IMG/VR virus record: IMGVR_UViG_2548876936_000010
DNA: 34,655 bases
Direction: 5' to 3' (one strand)
Origin: a virus
Taxonomy: Duplodnaviria > Heunggongvirae > Uroviricota > Caudoviricetes
Within the stretch, counting starts at the first letter, position 1. Every line of letters starts with the position of its first letter. Below the pieces are notes generated by a model. It ran no database searches, was not told where the DNA came from, and was given only the letters and a program-made list of their open reading frames with translations. Positions 5,413-28,317 of this stretch are shown piece after piece. Position numbers and translations under genes: made by a program.

Positions 5413-6603
5413 TTAATTGCTGTTAACCGAAGTGACCAGATTTGCCAGGTATTTATCGGTAATACGCTGGCGCAGGGTCAGGTTTTCGAGAGGAGGCACC
5501 GGTGTATAGTCGTAGTCGATATACAGTTTTCCGGCCTTGAGGGTTTCCGCATCGTTGGATTCTTCGCTGAACCAGCAGGTCGCATCCACGATATAGCCGT
5601 TTGTTTTCAGCTCACGGAATTTGGCATTAATGCCGTCAACGATGTCGCGAATCAGCGTTGCGGTGATGGGCTTATCCACAGCCCACATGTGCGCCTCAGC
5701 CATCGTGTCGGCCAGCACCTGCGCGGTGCGGGTGTAGTTTTCAAAGAGGAACAGCGGGTCATCAGAGCAGGTACGGTTACCCCAGAAGCGGAAACCGTCA
5801 CGGCGAATCAGCGTTGTGACGCCTGACTCGTTAAGCAGGTCAGCATCGGTGCCGGACTCCTGCAAATCCCAGAATACGGACGCGCTGATGCCGGTAACAC
5901 CGTTTACCCCGACGTTGGACAGCGTTTTATGCCAGCCCTGCTCCTGGTCGATTTTAGCGCGCAGACCCAGCGCACGGGCGGTGGCATACGCGGTGGCGGT
6001 GGTACTGGTGACCGTATCCCATGCGAGGAAATCCGGCCAGATGACCATCAGCTCACGCTGGCTGAAATTCTGGCGGTAGGCTTTCACCTCGGAAATGGTC
6101 TTACAGCCCCATGCGCTGATATATCCGAAAGCGCGCAGCTTCTGACAGACGGATGCCAGTGCAACAGCCACCTCTTTGGTATCCAGTCCCGGCACACCGA
6201 GAATACGCGGTTTAACACCGGTTACCGACTCCGCCGCCAGCAGGGCTTTTAGTCCGGTGTACTGACCGTTTTCGTCGGTGGTGCCGATGATATTGGAAAC
6301 GGTCTGCGCGAGTTTCGTTTCCTCGTCATCACCGGTGCCGTCTTCCACGCGCACGACAACGGTGACCGGTTTTGACTGGTCAGCGATGGCCTGCAACGAT
6401 GCCGCCAGCGTGCCTTTTTTACCGGCCTTTGCAATTGCGCTTTGCACATTGGTAATCAGCACCGGTTTATTGAGGGGGAAGGTTTCCGCATCCGCATCGC
6501 TGGCCGTGCAGACCATGCCGACAATGGCAGTGGATACGGTGGAAATGACGCGGGTGCCGTCGTTAATCTCCAGCACCTGCACGCCATGATGATAGTCACT
6601 CAT
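5413..6603 (-). CDS. FI: Contractile tail sheath protein gpFI (396 aa)
   Basis: 396-aa ORF, ATG at 6603, first gene of the FI-FII-E-T-U-D block. Confidence 0.9.
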   Translation of the reverse strand: MSDYHHGVQVLEINDGTRVISTVSTAIVGMVCTASDADAETFPLNKPVLITNVQSAIAKAGKKGTLAASLQAIADQSKPVTVVVRVEDGTGDDEETKLAQTVSNIIGTTDENGQYTGLKALLAAESVTGVKPRILGVPGLDTKEVAVALASVCQKLRAFGYISAWGCKTISEVKAYRQNFSQRELMVIWPDFLAWDTVTSTTATAYATARALGLRAKIDQEQGWHKTLSNVGVNGVTGISASVFWDLQESGTDADLLNESGVTTLIRRDGFRFWGNRTCSDDPLFLFENYTRTAQVLADTMAEAHMWAVDKPITATLIRDIVDGINAKFRELKTNGYIVDATCWFSEESNDAETLKAGKLYIDYDYTPVPPLENLTLRQRITDKYLANLVTSVNSN

Positions 6604-6698
6604 CCGTTTAACTCCGTGGTTAATGGGTGCAACTATTTTCTGTTGTGCAGAGCATAAGACGCTATTTGACCTGGCTGGTCAGTGGATGAAACAACAGA

Positions 6699-6727
6699 TA
6701 AAGAAAAGGCGGGCAATTCGCCCGCCT
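6699..6727 (-). terminator. Candidate intrinsic terminator (8-bp GC stem aggcgggc/gcccgcct, 5-nt loop, T-rich tail on - strand)
   Basis: Inverted repeat 6707..6714 / 6720..6727; - strand continues tttctttatc; lies between the cargo island and the FI start. Confidence 0.45.
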
Positions 6728-6786
6728 GTCCTGATTTGTACTCACTCATTTTCCGCCTGACAATTTACATAGCCCAAATGCTATCA

Positions 6787-6802
6787 AATCTGACAGTCTG
6801 CT
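6787..6802. repeat. Left copy of 16-bp perfect inverted repeat aatctgacagtctgct bracketing the FI-G cargo island
   Basis: Exact reverse complement of 9220..9235; a related direct copy at 9092..9116. Confidence 0.8.
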
Positions 6803-6933
6803 TTGAGCGAAAAGTGGACATTAGAGTTACAAAAGCAAGTTTAAATCATCCAAAATATTACAATGTCCTTATCTATCTGATATCGTTATGATAAAAAGCT
6901 CCTGAATATAATCGATAGTAGGTGGTTATTTCC

Positions 6934-7311
6934 ATGAAATCAATTTTAGAGGTTTTTACTCAAGGAAATACTAAAGAAAAACTGGCTGTTATCGCCGATC
7001 TCACAACCATTGCGGGAATATCGATTGCAACTATTATTGCTGGTTTGTTAACCCTAGTTGCAAAAACAGATAAACTAGATGTTGGAAATCTGTTTGGAGT
7101 TGTCATAATATCTCTGCTCGGATTGGCTGGTGTTTGCTGTTTTGTGGCCTTATTTATTTGGGTTATAACCCAAATGTCTAAACCATGGGGAACACCTCGG
7201 GGGGTTCAGCCCTTAGTTAAGTGTGCTATTTCCCTTATCTTTATCTGTATGTTTTTGCTGGCTGTCTTTACATTTTATGAGTTTATTTCTTCGATGAGCA
7301 TACGCTATTGA
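6934..7311 (+). CDS. Small hydrophobic membrane protein (125 aa, about 3-4 predicted TM helices), function unknown
   Basis: ATG at 6934 preceded by aggtgg; long hydrophobic stretches (IAGISIATIIAGLLTLVA, VVIISLLGLAGVCCFVALFIWVI, ISLIFICMFLLAVFTF); AT-rich relative to flanking phage genes. Confidence 0.6.
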   Translation: MKSILEVFTQGNTKEKLAVIADLTTIAGISIATIIAGLLTLVAKTDKLDVGNLFGVVIISLLGLAGVCCFVALFIWVITQMSKPWGTPRGVQPLVKCAISLIFICMFLLAVFTFYEFISSMSIRY

Positions 7312-21532: not shown

Positions 21533-23305
21533 ATGACCATCACCACAGACACCACTCTTTTACACGACCCGCGTCGTCAGGCGGCGCTGCTGTACTGGCA
21601 GGGATTTTCCGTGCCGCAGATTGCCGCCATGTTGCAGATGAAACGCCCGACGGTGCAGAGCTGGAAACAGCGCGACGGCTGGGACAGCGTTGCCCCCATC
21701 AGCCGTGTCGAAATGAGTCTGGAAGCGCGGCTGACCCAGCTCATCATCAAACCGCAGAAAACCGGCGGTGACTTCAAGGAAATTGACCTGCTCGGACGCC
21801 AGATTGAACGACTGGCACGGGTCAACCGTTACAGTCAGACCGGCAACGAGGCAGACCTTAATCCGAACGTCGCTAACCGCAACAAAGGCGGGCGGCGCAA
21901 ACCGAAAAAGAATTTTTTCAGTGACGAGGCCATCGAAAAGCTGGAGCAGATTTTCTTTGAGCAGTCTTTCGAATATCAGTTGCACTGGTATCGCGCCGGG
22001 CTTGAGCACCGCATCCGCGATATCCTGAAATCCCGCCAGATTGGCGCGACGTTTTATTTTTCCCGCGAGGCGCTGCTGCGCGCCCTGAAAACCGGTCATA
22101 ACCAGATTTTTCTGTCGGCCAGTAAAACGCAGGCGTATGTGTTCCGCGAATACATCATCGCCTTTGCCCGGCTGGTTGACGTTGACCTGACCGGTGACCC
22201 GATTGTCCTGGGCAATAACGGCGCAAAACTGATTTTTCTCGGCACCAACTCCAACACCGCACAGAGCCATAACGGCGACCTGTACGTCGACGAGATTTTC
22301 TGGATCCCGAATTTTCAGGTACTGCGTAAGGTGGCATCAGGTATGGCCTCACAGAGTCACCTGCGCTCGACCTATTTCTCCACCCCGTCCACACTGGCGC
22401 ACGACGCCTACCCGTTCTGGTCGGGTGAACTGTTCAACCGGGGACGCGCCAGCGCCGCCGAACGTGTGGAAATCGACGTCAGTCATAACGCCCTTGCCGG
22501 TGGTCTTCTCTGTGCGGACGGCCAGTGGCGGCAGATTGTCACCATTGAGGACGCCCTGAAAGGCGGCTGCACATTGTTCGACATTGAGCAGCTCAAACGC
22601 GAAAACAGCGCCGACGATTTTAAAAACCTGTTCATGTGTGAATTTGTTGACGACAAGGCATCGGTGTTCCCGTTCGAGGAGCTGCAACGCTGCATGGTCG
22701 ACACGCTGGAAGAATGGGAAGACTACGCGCCGTTTGCCGCAAATCCGTTCGGCTCCCGCCCGGTATGGATTGGTTACGACCCGTCACACCGTGGCGACAG
22801 CGCCGGATGCGTGGTGCTGGCACCGCCGGTGGTGGCCGGTGGCAAATTCAGAATACTTGAGCGTCACCAGTGGAAAGGCATGGACTTTGCCACCCAGGCG
22901 GAGTCCATCCGCAAACTCACCGAAAAATACAACGTCGAATACATCGGTATTGATGCCACCGGCCTCGGTGTCGGCGTGTTCCAGCTCGTGCGCTCGTTCT
23001 ATCCCGCCGCGCGCGATATCCGCTACACGCCGGAAATGAAAACCGCAATGGTGCTCAAGGCCAAAGACGTCATCCGCCGTGGCTGTCTGGAATATGACGT
23101 CAGCGCCACCGACATCACCAGCTCGTTCATGGCTATCCGCAAGACCATGACCAGCAGCGGACGCAGCGCCACCTATGAGGCCAGCCGCAGCGAGGAAGCC
23201 AGCCACGCCGACCTCGCCTGGGCAACCATGCACGCCCTGTTAAATGAGCCACTCACCGCCGGTATCAGCACTCCGCTGACATCCACCATTCTGGAGTTTT
23301 ACTGA
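21533..23305 (+). CDS. P: Terminase large (ATPase) subunit gpP (590 aa from ATG at 21533)
   Basis: ORF 21503..23305; ATG at 21533 after ggcgaggt; divergent from O; length as P2 P. Confidence 0.85.
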   Translation: MTITTDTTLLHDPRRQAALLYWQGFSVPQIAAMLQMKRPTVQSWKQRDGWDSVAPISRVEMSLEARLTQLIIKPQKTGGDFKEIDLLGRQIERLARVNRYSQTGNEADLNPNVANRNKGGRRKPKKNFFSDEAIEKLEQIFFEQSFEYQLHWYRAGLEHRIRDILKSRQIGATFYFSREALLRALKTGHNQIFLSASKTQAYVFREYIIAFARLVDVDLTGDPIVLGNNGAKLIFLGTNSNTAQSHNGDLYVDEIFWIPNFQVLRKVASGMASQSHLRSTYFSTPSTLAHDAYPFWSGELFNRGRASAAERVEIDVSHNALAGGLLCADGQWRQIVTIEDALKGGCTLFDIEQLKRENSADDFKNLFMCEFVDDKASVFPFEELQRCMVDTLEEWEDYAPFAANPFGSRPVWIGYDPSHRGDSAGCVVLAPPVVAGGKFRILERHQWKGMDFATQAESIRKLTEKYNVEYIGIDATGLGVGVFQLVRSFYPAARDIRYTPEMKTAMVLKAKDVIRRGCLEYDVSATDITSSFMAIRKTMTSSGRSATYEASRSEEASHADLAWATMHALLNEPLTAGISTPLTSTILEFY

Positions 23306-24324
23306 TGAGCAAGAAAAAAGGGAAAACACCGCGACCTGCGGCAAAAACAATCACCGCCAGCGCCCCGAAAATGGAAGCATTCACCTTTGGTGAGCCGGTG
23401 CCGGTACTCGACCGCCGTGACATTCTGGATTACGTCGAGTGCATCAGTAACGGCAGATGGTATGAGCCGCCGGTCAGCTTTACCGGTCTGGCAAAAAGCC
23501 TGCGTGCTGCCGTGCATCACAGCTCGCCGATTTACGTCAAACGCAATATTCTGGCCTCGACATTTATCCCGCATCCGTGGCTTTCCCAGCAGGATTTCAG
23601 CCGCTTTGTGCTGGATTTTCTGGTGTTCGGTAATGCGTTTCTGGAAAAGCGATACAGCACCACCGGTAAGGTCATCAGACTGGAAACCTCACCGGCAAAA
23701 TATACCCGCCGTGGCGTGGAGGAGGATGTTTACTGGTGGGTGCCGTCCTTCAACGAGCCGACACCTTTCGCGCCCGGCTCCGTGTTTCACCTGCTGGAGC
23801 CGGATATTAATCAGGAGCTGTACGGTCTGCCGGAATATCTCAGCGCCCTTAACTCTGCCTGGCTGAATGAGTCGGCCACGCTGTTCCGCCGCAAGTATTA
23901 CGAAAACGGCGCACATGCCGGATACATCATGTACGTCACCGATGCCGTGCAGGACCGCAACGATATCGAAATGCTTCGCGAAAACATGGTTAAGTCGAAA
24001 GGCCGCAACAACTTTAAAAACCTGTTTCTCTATGCCCCACAGGGGAAAGCCGACGGCATTAAAATTATCCCCCTCAGTGAAGTGGCGACGAAGGACGATT
24101 TTTTTAATATCAAAAAAGTCAGCGCCGCAGATCTCCTGGACGCACACCGCATCCCCTTTCAGTTGATGGGCGGTAAGCCGGAGAATGTCGGGTCACTAGG
24201 AGATATTGAAAAAGTGGCAAAGGTCTTTGTCCGCAATGAACTCACTCCATTACAGGAGAGAATAAAGTCAATAAATGAATGGTTAGATATGGAAGTCATA
24301 AAATTCCTTGATTATAACTTATAA
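23305..24324 (+). CDS. Q: Portal (capsid vertex) protein gpQ (339 aa)
   Basis: 339-aa ORF, start overlaps P stop; synteny P-Q. Confidence 0.85.
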   Translation: MSKKKGKTPRPAAKTITASAPKMEAFTFGEPVPVLDRRDILDYVECISNGRWYEPPVSFTGLAKSLRAAVHHSSPIYVKRNILASTFIPHPWLSQQDFSRFVLDFLVFGNAFLEKRYSTTGKVIRLETSPAKYTRRGVEEDVYWWVPSFNEPTPFAPGSVFHLLEPDINQELYGLPEYLSALNSAWLNESATLFRRKYYENGAHAGYIMYVTDAVQDRNDIEMLRENMVKSKGRNNFKNLFLYAPQGKADGIKIIPLSEVATKDDFFNIKKVSAADLLDAHRIPFQLMGGKPENVGSLGDIEKVAKVFVRNELTPLQERIKSINEWLDMEVIKFLDYNL

Positions 24325-24366: not shown

Positions 24367-25074
24367 CTATATATACTTCCTTTTTACTCTACTTAATTCT
24401 ATCACTGATGAGGAGTGACAAAATGACAAATTAATAGTATCGATATAATCCAAAATTTGACTCTCAACCTCAATAAAAATATTTTTGGGCCCATTACTAA
24501 TCGATATACCGATTTCATCCAAAACAGCCATCATTTTTCTCTGATGAGTTTTATATTTATAGTCTTTATTTTCCTCTGTAATATGTGCATTGGCTTCCTC
24601 AATAACACATTTGATTCTAGATATTATTTCTAGATAATCTCTCGAAACAGATATATCACCGCCTTGCGCTTCAGGGAACATAACCCTATACCATCTAAAA
24701 AAATTAACTTTCTCTGGATAGATGCTACTTCTTTTAGTTAACTCAGCACTTGCAAATTCTCTAAACATCGTCAGATGACTAGTGTAATTACTATTATTAT
24801 TATTTTTAACTCCAGCGTTATATGTCATCAAAGCAATCATAACACCAAAAACGGTAACAAAAGTTGTTATAAGCCATCCAAACGCCTGAAAATACATTAC
24901 TATACCAGATGTTTTTTCCGCAAAAAATTTTAAGCACTGGCTATCGAAGCATATATCACGCTCATATAGCTTTTCATTCTGAATAGTTTCAAAAAGAGAA
25001 ATTAGCGAAAAAATCAAAAAAAGAGCTGACGACACACCGACAATATATTTGAGAAGTCTAATATTTGCATTCAT
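24367..25074 (-). CDS. Two-TM membrane protein (235 aa) translationally coupled to the RT; candidate effector
   Basis: ATG at 25074 overlaps the RT stop (ATGA, 25071..25074); TM1 YIVGVSSALFLIFSLISLF, TM2 GIVMYFQAFGWLITTFVTVFGVMIALM, then about 150-aa soluble domain; AT-rich. Confidence 0.7.
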   Translation of the reverse strand: MNANIRLLKYIVGVSSALFLIFSLISLFETIQNEKLYERDICFDSQCLKFFAEKTSGIVMYFQAFGWLITTFVTVFGVMIALMTYNAGVKNNNNSNYTSHLTMFREFASAELTKRSSIYPEKVNFFRWYRVMFPEAQGGDISVSRDYLEIISRIKCVIEEANAHITEENKDYKYKTHQRKMMAVLDEIGISISNGPKNIFIEVESQILDYIDTINLSFCHSSSVIELSRVKRKYI

Positions 25075-26261
25075 AATGGTTTTAAAGATGCCAATCTAGA
25101 TTTAAAACACTCCAGTTTTTCTTTAAATGATTCAGAGCGAGTAAGAATAATCATCTTATATCTCGTCAAATCATATTTTCTTTTATACCAATGTTTATTT
25201 TGATTACCTTTCGAATACGACAACTCTAAACTTTTTATAGCTGCATCAATCACAGCAACATCTCTTTTAGATGGCATCGGTTTTATTGCCTGCAACTGTT
25301 TCTTGAATGATTCATATTTTTCATGCCCAACACGGCCAAGCTTATTCACTCTCCCCATACATCTATTGAATTCTTTTCTGTATGCAACACTTGTTTTTGT
25401 GTTATTTTTTGCCGCCAGTAATTTCAAATTATGTATAGATGCCCTGATTCTTTTGACTTCATCGGATGGTAGTCGAGGTGAGTCATAGTCAACTCTTAAA
25501 CCATGTACTTTTATAGGTTCAGATGAACAGTGAAATATTTTAGTTTTGTGCTTATTTATCGGCAAGTCATGCTCAGAAAGCATCCTCTCTATATGGCTTT
25601 GCATTTGAGAAAAATCATAATTACTTATTTTAGATGACACGGTAATATCATCTACCAAACGCGTATAAACAAGTCCTTTCCTCTGCGCACGTCTTACCAC
25701 ATCCCCTTCAACAGCGAATAAACACAAAGTTGCTATATAGCTTGATGTTAAGGCCCCCTGTACGACAAAATCATCCTTAGTACATATATCCACCAAGTAT
25801 TCAAGAGCCTCATCCTTAATATGCAATATCTCCTCAAACACGCTCCTAACCAGATCTCTATGGATATTATCGAAAAAATTACTTATATCCACCTTGAGAA
25901 CTGTTTTTGCTCCACAATGAGCCTTTGCACATGAAACATAGTCACGTTTGACATTAGAATTTAAAACATCATTTTTACTGGGAACTGAACCAAACAAAAA
26001 TGAAGGAAAAACAACCAATTCCTTAAAGATACGTTTATTAATTCTACTCTGTAATAATCTCATTTTAGGATGCAGGGAGTAGACAATCCGTTTGCTTCCG
26101 TCAATTTTGGGAATTTCTTTTAGAGTATATTTCTCATCTAATGATAATTCTGCAATAGCTTTAAGCTCTTCAACAGAAATCGATAAAGCCTTTGACAACT
26201 TTTCAAGTGTTGTGATAGGAGCATTGGATTTGCTGTATGGTTTAAATTTATCCATAAACAT
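25071..26261 (-). CDS. Reverse transcriptase, retron-like (about 397 aa; start ambiguous among ATGs at 26297, 26261, 26255)
   Basis: RT motifs in the translation: IPKIDGSKRIV, LLQSRINKRI, CAKAH...LKVDISNFFDNI, QGALTSSYIATLCL, YTRLVDDITV (YxDD-type), LPINKHKTKI, IKVHGLRV; basic C-terminal extension. Confidence 0.8.
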   Translation of the reverse strand: MFMDKFKPYSKSNAPITTLEKLSKALSISVEELKAIAELSLDEKYTLKEIPKIDGSKRIVYSLHPKMRLLQSRINKRIFKELVVFPSFLFGSVPSKNDVLNSNVKRDYVSCAKAHCGAKTVLKVDISNFFDNIHRDLVRSVFEEILHIKDEALEYLVDICTKDDFVVQGALTSSYIATLCLFAVEGDVVRRAQRKGLVYTRLVDDITVSSKISNYDFSQMQSHIERMLSEHDLPINKHKTKIFHCSSEPIKVHGLRVDYDSPRLPSDEVKRIRASIHNLKLLAAKNNTKTSVAYRKEFNRCMGRVNKLGRVGHEKYESFKKQLQAIKPMPSKRDVAVIDAAIKSLELSYSKGNQNKHWYKRKYDLTRYKMIILTRSESFKEKLECFKSRLASLKPL

Positions 26262-26512
26262 ACCATTCAAATTCAAAGTTACGTACGGTCTTCCCATACT
26301 CAAGGGTGGAACAGCAGAGATGCTTACATCAACAATTGTCAGCAACAGCCTCTGCTATCTTTCGACCGTACGTAATGTCGTCGGCTACGGCACCATCGTA
26401 GTTGACGACGGTGGGGCCTCGCTGATAGGTCCATAGTGGACGCTTTTTTGTAAAAGCAAAAACTGACAATTTAATGTTGTTGACTGCCGCATACCAAGCG
26501 AATCGCTGGTGC
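26262..26512 (-). ncRNA. Candidate structured non-coding leader of the RT (possible retron msr/msd-like RNA)
   Basis: 12-bp perfect inverted repeat ttacgtacggtc (26279..26290) / gaccgtacgtaa (26364..26375) with nested 7-bp repeat agcagag/ctctgct; adjacent hairpin 26377..26409; no ORF. Confidence 0.4.
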
Positions 26513-26519
26513 GCTAAGA

Positions 26520-26548
26520 ATAATGCAACAAAAAAATAAGAATTTCAA
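26520..26548 (-). promoter_or_regulatory. Candidate sigma70-type promoter for the RT module (-35 TTGAAA, 17-nt spacer, -10 CATTAT)
   Basis: - strand ggTTGAAAttcttatttttttgttgCATTATtc; -35 at 26548..26543, -10 at 26525..26520; between cos and the structured leader. Confidence 0.3.
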
Positions 26549-26586: not shown

Positions 26587-26605
26587 GTGCTTTCCCCGCC
26601 TCGCC
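26587..26605 (-). other. cos: cos cohesive-end site (19 nt), - strand reads GGCGAGGCGGGGAAAGCAC
   Basis: + strand gtgctttccccgcctcgcc is the reverse complement of the 19-nt cohesive end I recall for P2. Confidence 0.65.
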
Positions 26606-27312: not shown

Positions 27313-28317
27313 ATGTCAAAAGAAAACACACCAATGGAACCAAGCATAAATATAAAGGCAGACTTCACTGAGATATTAAATTCATCGCCAAAGGGCGTTA
27401 AGTATATATTCAATATTCTCTTCGGAAAAAAACACGCAGAGGCCGAGAGAAGGATTAGGCTATCGAACGCTCAAGATTATGCAGATATGAAAAAGATCAT
27501 ATCTGGAGAAGCAACATATGATAATGAGAGGAACCAAATAACACCTTCTAACCAAGACATTAAGTCATTAATTGTTAGTGCATTGCAGGATGAGGAAATT
27601 AAAAATCTTATAGGCTGCATCAGAAGCGCCTCAGAATACATTAAAGATGATACTGATAACGATGGTGGTCCATCCCAAGACTTTATTAACAGATGGCGAA
27701 GCGATGCGAAACTAATCAGTGAACAGTCTATCCAGTACGTTTGGGGGCGAATTCTAGCGGAAGAAATAAACACACCTCAAACTGTAAGCGTAAGAACCCT
27801 TGATGTAATAAAAAACCTATCAAAAGAAGAGGCTGAATATTTCTCAGAGGTACTTGACTTTATATTTTACGATTCTTATTTGATTGATAATGGAGATACC
27901 AAGAATCCATTCATCTCACCAGAAAAAGGTCATAAATTGAGAGATGCAGGATTAATAGTTACTTTTACTCCTGGAATGTATTTCTCCGAGACATGGGATA
28001 CACAACATTTTGTTCTCAGTGGAGCCACCATACCAAAAGTATTCTACATCAGCAGTTCTGATAAGTATTACTTTATCGATGCAGGCAAAATAACTGACGA
28101 CCCTAAAATTCTGGTATGGAAGTTAACAAATGCTGGCAAAGAACTATATAAAATTCTAAAGAAAGATCATAAAACCAAAGAAGAATCAGTAAAAAAAATT
28201 ATTGACTGGATATTAAACAGCACTAAAGCTTCTGAGTTTTACCATGGGGATATTATTAAACATTCAGACAATAGCCTGTCAGTTGAGAACTTACTGACTA
28301 TAAGCAGAAATAGATAG
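27313..28317 (+). CDS. Hypothetical protein (334 aa), AT-rich cargo at the position P2 uses for tin/old
   Basis: ATG at 27313 with ggag upstream; no Walker A or other motif I can recognise; convergent with A; followed by a hairpin. Confidence 0.65.
   Translation: MSKENTPMEPSINIKADFTEILNSSPKGVKYIFNILFGKKHAEAERRIRLSNAQDYADMKKIISGEATYDNERNQITPSNQDIKSLIVSALQDEEIKNLIGCIRSASEYIKDDTDNDGGPSQDFINRWRSDAKLISEQSIQYVWGRILAEEINTPQTVSVRTLDVIKNLSKEEAEYFSEVLDFIFYDSYLIDNGDTKNPFISPEKGHKLRDAGLIVTFTPGMYFSETWDTQHFVLSGATIPKVFYISSSDKYYFIDAGKITDDPKILVWKLTNAGKELYKILKKDHKTKEESVKKIIDWILNSTKASEFYHGDIIKHSDNSLSVENLLTISRNR

What the first reader, a model, noticed from the sequence alone, without database searches (positions are those of the whole stretch)
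26262..26512. Nested inverted repeats upstream of the RT, candidate retron-like ncRNA
On the transcribed (-) strand, between the candidate promoter and the RT start, there is a 12-bp perfect inverted repeat (26279..26290 / 26364..26375) separated by 73 nt that itself contains a 7-bp inverted repeat (agcagag/ctctgct), and an adjacent 33-nt hairpin (26377..26409). No ORF covers the region. Retron msr/msd RNAs sit exactly here, but I cannot assign the a1/a2 repeats or the branching G with confidence. The 12-bp arms are too close together to bracket a whole msr-msd and more likely form the base of a long stem.
Basis: seen in the sequence. Interest (0 to 1): 0.7.

Follow-up and report, generated by a model that had tools for sequence, protein, structure and literature searches.

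The report
Retron Ec48 non-coding RNA gene
The inverted repeats are real and belong to the template RNA of the already well-studied E. coli anti-phage retron Ec48 (Retron-Eco6); the only new point is that the 12-bp stem is part of a conserved 3' RNA domain that published definitions of this RNA leave out.

Summary
Observation confirmed. All three inverted repeats are at the stated coordinates, and a 12-bp perfect repeat exceeds chance (0 of 300 shuffles).

The locus is retron Ec48 / Retron-Eco6 (type IV) in a P2-like prophage next to cos. The RT has an LVDD box. The 2TM effector is identical to TM48_ECOLX.

The "adjacent 33-nt hairpin" is the msd. Published RT-DNA sequencing starts at + strand 26368, so msDNA-Ec48 is 26368..26412/15. 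In 26 of 30 homologues this hairpin is more stable in the cDNA sense.

The 12-bp repeat (B/B') and the nested 7-bp repeat (C/C') are genuine RNA helices. Across 28-31 type IV retrons they are 92-94% paired, with compensatory changes in 18 of 22 pairs.

The conserved RNA runs 26513..26276 (238 nt), from a conserved sigma-70 start site to just after B'. A third covarying helix (A/A') crosses B/B' and C/C', giving a pseudoknot or two alternative folds.

The published ncRNA (26534..26349) cuts off the 3' partner of all three helices. Its a2 arm lies partly in the promoter and is not conserved.

The branching G could not be assigned.

Verdict: a known element and a correct first reading, plus a modest structural refinement that can be tested.

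The parts
26520..26548 (-). Sigma-70-type promoter: TTGAAA (-35), 17-nt spacer, CATTAT (-10). Predicted start near 26514-26513.
   Evidence: Consensus scan. A TTGACA-like box sits at the same distance upstream of the conserved RNA in essentially all 31 homologues.
26276..26513 (-). Conserved type IV retron ncRNA (about 238 nt): the msr-like 5' part, the msd, and a 3' domain.
   Evidence: An iterated nhmmer profile aligns 26513..26276 with the RT-upstream regions of 32 loci whose RTs are 41-79% identical.
26494..26510 (-). P1 hairpin, with invariant C26505-G26504 / C26500-G26499 around a 3-nt loop. It contains G26506, my guess at the priming G implied by published alignments.
   Evidence: Inner 5 bp are 98% paired with compensatory changes. 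Invariant positions are listed.
26463..26492 (-). A strand: the 5' strand of the long-range helix A/A'. Segments are A0 26492-26489, A1 26484-26479 and A2 26471-26463.
26442..26457 (-). P2 hairpin (GCUUUU-ACAA-AAAAGC), an msr-like stem-loop with a conserved GC base.
   Evidence: Folding. Conserved UUUGCU / AGCG.
26428..26440 (-). P3 hairpin (GUCCA-CUA-UGGAC), variable in length among homologues.
26368..26415 (-). msd: the template for msDNA-Ec48. The cDNA equals the + strand 26368..26415 (48 nt as first reported) or ..26412 (45 nt by sequencing).
   Evidence: The RT-DNA string in the supplement of 10.1101/2024.01.25.577267 maps with its 5' end at 26368. Length and 3' end are from PMC8989520.
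It has 13 bp. The two A.C mismatches in the RNA become G.T wobbles in the cDNA.
   Evidence: The cDNA sense is more stable in 26 of 30 homologues.
26364..26375 (-). B: the upstream arm of the 12-bp repeat. It covers the first 8 template nucleotides (26375-26368) plus the first 4 nucleotides of the published a1.
26350..26356 (-). C: the upstream arm of the nested 7-bp repeat. It lies inside the published a1.
26320..26342 (-). A' strand: it sits in the apical loop of the long hairpin and pairs with the A strand about 120-170 nt upstream. This helix crosses B/B' and C/C'.
26313..26319 (-). C': the downstream arm of the nested 7-bp repeat.
26293..26306 (-). P4 mini-hairpin, CCC-UUGAGUAU-GGG, with near-invariant loop and closing sequence including AUG 26297-26295.
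   Evidence: C26304-G26295 invariant in 28 of 28.
26279..26290 (-). B': the downstream arm of the 12-bp repeat, opening with near-invariant G26290. It is the last conserved element, followed by an A/U-rich tract and then the RT start.
25071..26255 (-). Retron Ec48 reverse transcriptase (394 aa from ATG 26255). It has the LVDD active-site box and VHG in place of VTG.
24367..25074 (-). Retron Ec48 two-transmembrane effector (235 aa). Its start overlaps the RT stop codon.

Best explanation
The region is the msr-msd non-coding RNA gene of retron Ec48 (Retron-Eco6, type IV). It sits between its own sigma-70 promoter and the RT and 2TM-effector genes, in a P2-like prophage.

Transcription starts near 26514 (inferred). 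The first roughly 238 nt fold into P1, P2 and P3 (the msr-like part), the msd hairpin, and a 3' domain. The RT copies 26368 to 26412/15 into the 45-48-nt msDNA, whose core is the 13-bp hairpin. RNase H1 removes the template (both steps published).

Together with the P4 mini-hairpin they make a three-way junction between the msd and the RT start codon. They pair the start of the template and the whole of the published 'a1' with downstream sequence. The loop of this hairpin (A') pairs back to the msr side (A).

My preferred reading of their role is inferred, at about 0.55. The 3' domain is the conserved scaffold that clamps and presents the template start to the RT, doing the job usually given to a1/a2. 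Once the template, and with it 8 of the 12 nucleotides of B, is destroyed, A/A' keeps the two RNA halves together.

The msDNA-RT-effector complex then acts as the published RecBCD guard, killing the cell when phage Gam or gp5.9 inhibits RecBCD.
For: Identity:
- PADLOC RT_IV E = 8.9e-177 and 2TM_IV E = 4e-85.
- NCBIfam retron_Ec48_2TM 226.7 bits against a cut-off of 65.
- The effector is identical to TM48_ECOLX, and the 408-aa RT form occurs on 322 contigs.
- LVDD, VHG and D216/D217 numbering match the published descriptions.
- 57 E. coli genomes and phage pro147 carry it at 99% identity or more.

msd:
- The published ncRNA maps to 26349-26534 and the RT-DNA to the + strand from 26368.
- The hairpin is more stable in the cDNA sense in 26 of 30 homologues, mean -3.6 kcal/mol, p = 2.6e-5.
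- Substitutions in L009 create G.T wobbles in the DNA.

Helices:
- B/B' is 94% paired and C/C' 92% paired across 31 sequences, against 59-73% in shuffles.
- The official count gives 91.9% paired against 70.5% (0 of 500 shuffles), 29-45% for slid partners, and 18 of 22 pairs changed on both sides.
- A0/A1: all 11 pairs show compensatory changes.
- A2: 8-10 bp duplexes of unrelated sequence in nearly every homologue.

Extent and promoter.

Energetics: the MFE of -84.6 kcal/mol contains B/B' and C/C'. After the template is removed, the two fragments cofold through A/A'.
Against: The branching G and a functional a2 could not be assigned. So 'scaffold that presents the template' is inference, not a result.

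G26506 is my guess at the priming G implied by alignment to Ec86; the Ec48 position itself is not given in any text I could read. It is base-paired in P1 and is A in 4 of 31 homologues.

B' masks the first 8 template nucleotides, so it would have to be displaced before copying. That fits a repressive role equally well.

A/A' cannot be nested with B/B' and C/C'. With only 7 nt between C and A', and none between A' and C', the full A helix and C/C' may be sterically exclusive.

An ncRNA cut at 26349 still supported some editing, 0.66%. The 3' domain may therefore not be strictly essential, although I do not know what followed the ncRNA in that construct.

I could not read Mao et al. 1997 or the consensus-structure figures of Mestre et al. 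2020. Parts of this structure may already be published.
Confidence: 0.85

Rival explanations
1. Permuted priming. The conserved partner of a1 and of the template start lies downstream, so the primer is in the 3' domain rather than near the RNA 5' end. The leading candidate is the near-invariant G26290 at the junction end of B', just after the P4 stem. The msDNA would then branch from the RT mRNA leader, and A/A' would tether the 5' RNA fragment.
For: G26290 is G in every sequence that has a residue there (30 of 31 aligned; it pairs with C in 28 and U in 2), while every other B/B' pair except 26374-26280 covaries.

All of the published a1 is paired with C'/B' across the family. The published a2 is not conserved and lies partly in the promoter.

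The census RT-DNA string runs past G26506 to 26527, which would be unexpected if that G carried the branch.

Against: Priming at G26290 predicts a DNA 5' end at 26365, but 26368 is observed. A 3-nt trimming step would be needed, and none is reported for Eco6.

RNA on the 3' side of the proposed branch point would be paired with the template, which is unlike any known retron.

One published ncRNA alignment marks a conserved priming G alongside Ec86, which I take to lie near the 5' end.

The long census string may include low-level read-through of uncertain origin.
Confidence: 0.25
2. Regulatory switch. B/B' plus C/C' and the full A/A' helix are mutually exclusive folds. The hairpin state sequesters the template start and a1 and limits msDNA synthesis. 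Alternatively, it acts as a leaky terminator or processing signal that sets the ncRNA 3' end and the ncRNA-to-RT-mRNA ratio. The A/A' state would be the active or post-synthesis fold.
For: The helices cross, and the linkers are very short: 7 nt and 0 nt.

The hairpin state is 10.6 kcal/mol more stable than the nested A/A' state in the precursor, but A/A' dominates once the template is removed.

B' is always followed by an A/U-rich tract, and conservation ends there.

In type VI retrons, RNA structure and msDNA control expression.
Against: Eco6 makes abundant msDNA without a trigger.

The Shine-Dalgarno sequence and AUG of the RT lie 17-40 nt beyond B' and are not inside any conserved helix.

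The terminator scan found nothing there.

A pseudoknot in which all helices coexist is not excluded.
Confidence: 0.3
3. Canonical mini-retron. The 12-bp repeat is the a2/a1 pair. G26363 just after the upstream arm is the branching G, and the 48-nt msDNA is copied from 26338..26291, between the arms.
For: It is a perfect 12-bp repeat followed by a G. The 73-nt interval could hold a 48-nt msd.
Against: Published RT-DNA maps to 26368 and upward, outside the arms and on the other side of B.

Position 26363 is A in most homologues.

The interval is occupied by the covarying RNA helices C/C', P4 and A'.
Confidence: 0.02
4. The conserved AUG at 26297 inside the hairpin is a real start codon. It would be either the true RT start (408 aa) or a leader peptide translationally coupled to the RT, and the stem would regulate that translation.
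For: AUG 26297 is invariant in 30 of 31 homologues. It is in frame with the RT in the Ec48 subgroup even across a 6-nt indel. Many records annotate the 408-aa form.
Against: From that AUG the reading frames are 0 to more than 29 codons long. They fall in all three frames relative to the RT and stop anywhere from -42 to +20 relative to the RT start.

No Shine-Dalgarno sequence lies at a workable distance.

The G of this AUG forms the invariant closing pair of P4.

Most homologous RTs are 394-396 aa.
Confidence: 0.05

Closest known systems
Retron Ec48 / Retron-Eco6 (type IV, RT clade 3; Mao et al. 1996/1997; Millman et al. 2020)
   Same: It is this element. The effector is identical to TM48_ECOLX. 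The RT has LVDD, VHG and the D216/D217 numbering. The published ncRNA and RT-DNA strings map onto the window.
   Different: Nothing differs in the locus itself. What differs is the description. The working ncRNA (26534..26349) begins in the promoter and ends before A', C', P4 and B', whereas the family-conserved RNA is 26513..26276.
Canonical retron ncRNA, e.g. Ec86 / Retron-Eco1: a2, branching G, msr hairpins, msd long stem, a1
   Same: The order is promoter, ncRNA, RT on one strand. Short 5' hairpins are followed by one hairpin that becomes msDNA. Ec48 has GCGCACC-AGCGA where Ec86 has GCGCACCCUUAGCGA (my recollection of the Ec86 sequence).
   Different: There is no conserved terminal a2/a1 duplex and no invariant unpaired G on either side of the start site. 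The template start is inside a 12-bp helix whose partner lies downstream. Three long-range helices form a pseudoknot-like topology. Rfam finds nothing.
Type VI retron hybrid RNA (Retron-Vpa2 hyRNA; 10.1101/2025.10.22.683967)
   Same: It is in the same RT clade 3. A long structured transcript has a 3' repeat that anneals back next to the msr-msd arm, and conserved junction helices are supported by covariation.
   Different: The hyRNA is about 470 nt and encloses the effector coding sequence with its RBS sequestered. Its msDNA is repressed until triggered. Here no coding sequence or RBS lies inside the RNA, and msDNA is constitutive.
P2 prophage defence cargo at the cos-proximal variable loci (e.g. 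P2 old)
   Same: A defence cassette is carried as a moron in a P2-like genome, here next to cos. Both Ec48 and P2 Old respond to loss of RecBCD function (for Ec48; abstract listed for Old).
   Different: Old is a single ATPase-TOPRIM protein. This is an RT, ncRNA and membrane-effector system. It lies between cos and the portal gene Q rather than at the old/tin position.

Membership tests
Retron (type IV, Ec48 family) | Retron-clade reverse transcriptase | tested here: met
   PADLOC RT_IV E = 8.9e-177 over the full length. Pfam RVT_1 E = 1.4e-31. LVDD box and VHG as published for RT-Eco6.
Retron (type IV, Ec48 family) | Two-transmembrane effector gene immediately downstream of, or overlapping, the RT gene | tested here: met
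   NF038235 retron_Ec48_2TM scores 226.7 bits against a cut-off of 65. PADLOC 2TM_IV E = 4e-85. Exact identity with TM48_ECOLX. The genes overlap at 25071-25074.
Retron (type IV, Ec48 family) | Structured ncRNA directly upstream of the RT on the same strand, conserved with the RT | tested here: met
   A 238-nt element is conserved upstream of 32 type IV RT genes. Its helices covary.
Retron (type IV, Ec48 family) | Part of the ncRNA (the msd) is reverse-transcribed into msDNA | not testable with these tools
   This rests on the literature: the RT-DNA string maps to 26368 onward, with a length of 45-48 nt. Indirect support here is that the hairpin is selected in the cDNA sense in 26 of 30 homologues.
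Retron (canonical ncRNA architecture) | Terminal inverted repeats a2/a1 that pair the 5' and 3' ends of msr-msd | tested here: not met
   The published pair (26534-26508 / 26367-26349) is a weak duplex of -10.3 kcal/mol. Its 5' two-thirds lie in the promoter, and the equivalent regions in 31 homologues show no better-than-shuffle pairing. Instead, a1 pairs with downstream C'/B'.
Retron (canonical ncRNA architecture) | Invariant unpaired branching G directly 3' of a2, and a second unpaired G next to the first template base | tested here: inconclusive
   G26506 (AGC context) is paired in P1 and is A in 4 of 31 homologues. G26367 and G26366, next to the start, covary with B' (G-C to A-U). The near-invariant or invariant Gs are 26504, 26499, 26457, 26418/17, 26385, 26350/49, 26346, 26295 and 26290. 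None sits in the canonical geometry.
Rfam retron msr families | Match at the gathering score | tested here: not met
   No Rfam 15 family matched anywhere in the window.
Type VI retron hyRNA | Effector coding sequence and its RBS enclosed and sequestered within the structured RNA | tested here: not met
   The conserved RNA ends 17-40 nt before the RT start. The invariant AUG in P4 opens no conserved reading frame.

The most novel reading that the evidence does not exclude
The functional ncRNA of Ec48 and of type IV retrons in general is a roughly 238-nt pseudoknotted RNA (26513..26276). Its conserved 3' domain (A', C', P4, B') supplies the real partner of the template start and of 'a1'. Priming geometry would then be non-canonical: either a primer in the 3' domain, or a priming G brought in by tertiary packing rather than by a terminal a1/a2 duplex. 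Reverse transcription, by destroying one arm of the 12-bp helix, would refold the RNA just upstream of the RT gene. If so, the truncated ncRNAs used so far for type IV retrons lack essential structure.
Probability: 0.35. Interest if true: 0.6.

Novelty: already known. Interest (0 to 1): 0.3.

Why it matters
As posed, the finding rediscovers a textbook retron, so it is no surprise.

The added value is practical and can be tested. Type IV retrons did poorly in the experimental census (Eco6 editing at 0.2x Eco1; an Acinetobacter type IV retron made no RT-DNA). The ncRNA used for Eco6 stops at 26349, so it lacks the 3' partner of all three covarying long-range helices.

Extending the ncRNA to about 26276 is a simple experiment. 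It could improve RT-DNA yield.

Branch mapping would settle how a retron without a conserved a1/a2 duplex primes. That bears on how the RecBCD-guarding complex is built.

Tried and rejected
- **Rfam gathering scan of the whole window:** no family matched.
- **12-bp repeat as canonical a2/a1 around a mini msr-msd:** rejected, because the published RT-DNA maps outside the arms.
- **Published a2 (26534-26508):** it reproduces the exact ends of the census ncRNA. But it lies partly in the promoter and is not conserved in 31 homologues, or even within the Ec48 subgroup.
- **a2 = CUAUCAGCGA (26428-26419) with G26418 as the branch:** it pairs in Ec48, weakens in L009 and L011, and is absent in Pseudomonas (reading).
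- **GCACCAGCG (26512-26504) pairing with the msd loop CGAUGGUGC (I12):** it would start the DNA at 26399, which the RT-DNA contradicts.
- **GGCC (26418-26415) pairing with GGUC (26367-26364), seen in the cofold:** a1 variants covary with B', not with this motif.
- **Leader peptide or alternative RT start at the invariant AUG 26297:** rejected.
- **Intrinsic terminator after B':** not called by the scan. The A/U-rich tract is noted but was not tested.
- **Literature dead ends:**
  - Mao et al. 1997 (PMC179752) is not held.
  - No Mestre 2020 supplement is held, and its figures are unavailable.
  - The Simon 2019 supplement holds no sequences.
  - The Kong 2021 sequences are images only.
  - No Ec48 structural paper was found.
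- **PADLOC scan of neighbouring ORFs:** nothing.

Full report
**1. Observation**

- The 12-bp perfect repeat is at 26279-26290 / 26364-26375, with 73 nt between the arms.
- The nested 7-bp repeat is at 26313-26319 / 26350-26356.
- The 33-nt hairpin is at 26377-26409 (13-nt arms, 85% complementary, 7-nt loop).

A 12-bp perfect repeat is beyond chance. The longest in 300 dinucleotide-preserving shuffles of 26262-26512 was 10 nt. The (-) strand RNA folds 3.3 SD better than shuffles, and the minimum-energy fold contains all three elements. The proposed promoter is found by the consensus scan: TTGAAA-17-CATTAT, 26548..26520.

The statement that no ORF covers the region needs a caveat. Mechanical ORFs overlap it, and many database records start the RT at ATG 26297, inside the hairpin.

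**2. What the locus is**

- The ORF at 25071-26255 (-) is a type IV retron RT (PADLOC RT_IV, E = 8.9e-177; RVT_1).
- The overlapping ORF at 24367-25074 (-) is the Ec48-family 2TM effector (NF038235, 226.7 bits against a cut-off of 65).
- The effector is residue-for-residue the protein named TM48_ECOLX, 'Retron Ec48 transmembrane protein'. The 408-aa RT form occurs on 322 contigs.
- The RT has the LVDD box, VHG in place of VTG, and the substituted NAXXH motif described for RT-Eco6. Millman's catalytic D216/D217 equal D202/D203 plus the 14 codons from ATG 26297.
- The cassette is at least 99% identical in 57 complete E. coli genomes and in Peduovirus pro147.
- It lies between the P2 cos sequence and the portal gene.

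This is retron Ec48 / Retron-Eco6, the retron shown to guard RecBCD.

**3. Which part is the msd**

The supplement of the retron census (10.1101/2024.01.25.577267, retron terminal 488) prints the Eco6 ncRNA and the sequenced RT-DNA.
- Aligned to the window, the ncRNA is 26534..26349 on the (-) strand.
- The RT-DNA is the + strand starting at 26368.
- Using the reported 48 nt, or the 45 nt found by sequencing, msDNA-Ec48 is 26368..26415 or ..26412.
- That gives a 9-nt 5' tail, the 13-bp hairpin and a short 3' tail.

Comparative data agree. The hairpin region is more stable in the cDNA sense than in the RNA sense in 26 of 30 homologues (mean -3.6 kcal/mol, Wilcoxon p = 2.6e-5). The substitutions separating L009 from Ec48 turn Watson-Crick pairs into G.T wobbles in the DNA but into A.C mismatches in the RNA.

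**4. What the 12-bp and 7-bp repeats are**

I collected 44 loci encoding relatives of the RT, at 28-100% identity. A sequence-only nhmmer profile, iterated three times, matched 34 of the 35 upstream regions searched; 32 of the matches cover most of the profile's length.

For Ec48 the aligned element is 26513..26276. It begins at the predicted transcription start and ends just after the downstream arm of the 12-bp repeat.

In that structure-blind alignment:
- The 12-bp repeat (B/B') is 94% paired, with 28 additional pair types.
- The 7-bp repeat (C/C') is 92% paired, with 24 additional pair types.
- Column shuffles give 59-73% paired.
- Slid partners give 21-57% paired.

On an independent MAFFT alignment of 28 sequences, the pair-counting tool gives:
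- 91.9% of cells paired against 70.5% in shuffles (0 of 500 reached the observed value).
- 29-45% for slid partners.
- 18 of 22 pairs changed on both sides.

For example, UUACGUACGGUC/GACCGUACGUAA in Ec48 becomes GUAGGUUUGGCC/GGUCAAACCUAU in Pseudomonas.

A 3-bp mini-hairpin, P4, sits between C' and B'. It has an almost invariant loop (CCC-UUGAGUAU-GGG). B/B', C/C' and P4 therefore form a three-way junction.

**5. A third long-range helix and a topological problem**

The apical loop of that long hairpin (A', 26342-26320) pairs with a strand between P1 and P2 (A, 26492-26463).
- Segments A0 (AUGC/GCAU) and A1 (GUCAAC/GUUGAU) are 94-96% paired.
- All 11 pairs predicted by RNAalifold carry compensatory changes.
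- Segment A2 (AAUUGUCAG/CUGACAAUU) is an 8-10-bp duplex of unrelated sequence in nearly every homologue.

A/A' crosses both B/B' and C/C'. The RNA is therefore either a pseudoknot or it alternates between folds.

The linkers are short, 7 nt between C and A' and none between A' and C'. I think the full A helix and C/C' may not coexist, but I could not test this.

Energetically, the precursor prefers the B/B' plus C/C' hairpin (-84.6 kcal/mol) over a nested A/A' fold (-74.0 kcal/mol). Once the template 26368-26412 is removed, the two remaining fragments cofold through A/A'.

**6. Conflict with the published boundaries**

The ends of the census ncRNA (26534 and 26349) are exactly the ends of a weak, G.U-rich duplex between 26534-26508 and 26367-26349 (-10.3 kcal/mol). 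This is evidently the a2/a1 of the literature.

However, 26534-26516 lies between the -35 and -10 boxes and the predicted start. Every homologue has a TTGACA-like box at the same distance upstream of the conserved RNA. The corresponding upstream regions pair with 'a1' no better than shuffled sequence. Even the short in-transcript part (GCGCACC with GGU/CG) is lost in L011.

Conversely, the whole of 'a1' is paired, with covariation, to C' and B', which lie beyond the published 3' end. The published ncRNA thus lacks the 3' partner strand of all three long-range helices.

I could not see the consensus structures of Mestre et al. 2020 or Mao et al. 1997. Part of this may already be drawn somewhere.

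**7. Priming**

I could not assign the branching G.
- Kong et al. align the Ec48 ncRNA with those of Ec73, Ec86 and Ec107 and mark a conserved priming G, but the figure is an image and the position is not readable. From the resemblance of Ec48 'CCAGCGA' to Ec86 'UUAGCGA' (my recollection of the Ec86 sequence) I take it to be G26506.
- In the family, G26506 is paired in P1 and is A (with a compensating U) in 4 of 31 sequences.
- The two Gs next to the first template base (26367, 26366) covary with B'.
- Invariant or near-invariant Gs are 26504, 26499, 26457, 26418/17, 26385, 26350/49, 26346, 26295 and 26290.
- G26290 opens B' at the junction. It is the one B' position that does not covary.
- The census RT-DNA string runs past G26506 to 26527.

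This keeps alive a 'permuted' model with the primer in the 3' domain. That model predicts a 5' end at 26365, not the observed 26368. I give it about 0.25.

**8. Things excluded**

- The invariant AUG at 26297 is an RNA motif, not a start codon. Reading frames from it have every length and frame.
- The SD and AUG of the RT lie 17-40 nt beyond B', outside any conserved helix. Direct occlusion of RT translation is therefore not supported.
- No Rfam family matches.

**9. Mechanism, with status of each step**

| Step | Status |
|---|---|
| Promoter and start near 26514 | Inferred |
| Fold with P1-P3, msd hairpin, A/A', B/B', C/C', P4 | Shown by covariation |
| Copying of 26368..26412/15 and RNase H1 dependence | Published |
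| 3' domain as scaffold presenting the template start, with A/A' as tether after template removal | Inferred, about 0.55 |
| Alternative-fold regulation | About 0.3 |
| RecBCD guarding and abortive infection through the 2TM protein | Published |

**10. Verdict**

Interest as a discovery is low. The refinement is a 238-nt pseudoknotted ncRNA whose 3' domain is missing from current working definitions, with priming geometry unresolved. It is modest but directly testable, and it is relevant to retron engineering.

Noticed in passing
window 26587-26605 (- strand): GGCGAGGCGGGGAAAGCAC matches, from my memory, the 19-nt cohesive end of phage P2. The 42 nt around it match P2-like phage records close to the record ends in many of the listed hits. 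The retron therefore sits immediately inside cos, between cos and the portal gene Q (23305-24324, + strand).
   Followed up: partly
window 26295-26297 and 25071-26297 (- strand): An in-frame ATG 14 codons upstream of the conserved RT start gives the 408-aa RT seen in many records, and it explains Millman's D216/D217 numbering. The AUG is invariant across the family as part of the P4 hairpin, but it opens no conserved reading frame. The 408-aa form is therefore probably an annotation artefact. Phage pro147 uses yet another start, ATG 26261.
   Followed up: yes
L045 (phage pro147, KR073660.1) 6547-7254: In the phage record the retron 2TM effector is annotated as 'alkylated DNA repair protein AlkB'. 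This appears to be a mis-annotation.
   Followed up: no
window 27313-28317 (+ strand): A 334-aa ORF with a DUF2806 domain (E = 1.4e-19) lies on the other side of cos. This is about where P2 carries its variable old/tin cargo, judging from memory of the P2 map. It has no PADLOC match. pro147 has a different, 514-aa gene there.
   Followed up: partly
window 26259-26272 and 26490-26503: A 14-nt direct repeat at 79% identity (on the - strand, ATTTGAATGGTATG and ATTCGCTTGGTATG). One copy is at the RT start and the other in the 3' strand of P1. It is unexplained and may be chance.
   Followed up: no
window 26364-26375 / 26279-26290; homologous loci L012-L043: The arms of the 12-bp helix are partly self-complementary. 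Ec48 has UUACGUAA and CGUACG, and most homologues have a UUGGCCAA core. Two RNA molecules, or the RNA and the 5' tail of the msDNA, could therefore pair through this segment.
   Followed up: no
window 26485-26488 with 26324-26327: The internal loop between helix segments A0 and A1 is conserved in sequence: NNCA(A/G) opposite UGAA-like. That is unusual for a mere spacer and suggests a protein-binding or kink motif.
   Followed up: no
window 26417-26420 and 26385-26386: A near-invariant GAGG lies 2-5 nt beyond the point where the msDNA ends. An invariant AG lies inside the template (CT in the msDNA). Neither has an obvious pairing partner, and both are unexplained.
   Followed up: partly
homologous loci L011-L043, 30-45 nt upstream of the conserved RNA: Every type IV retron examined has a TTGACA-like box and a -10-like box at fixed spacing from the first conserved nucleotide. 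The promoter is as conserved in position as the RNA itself.
   Followed up: partly
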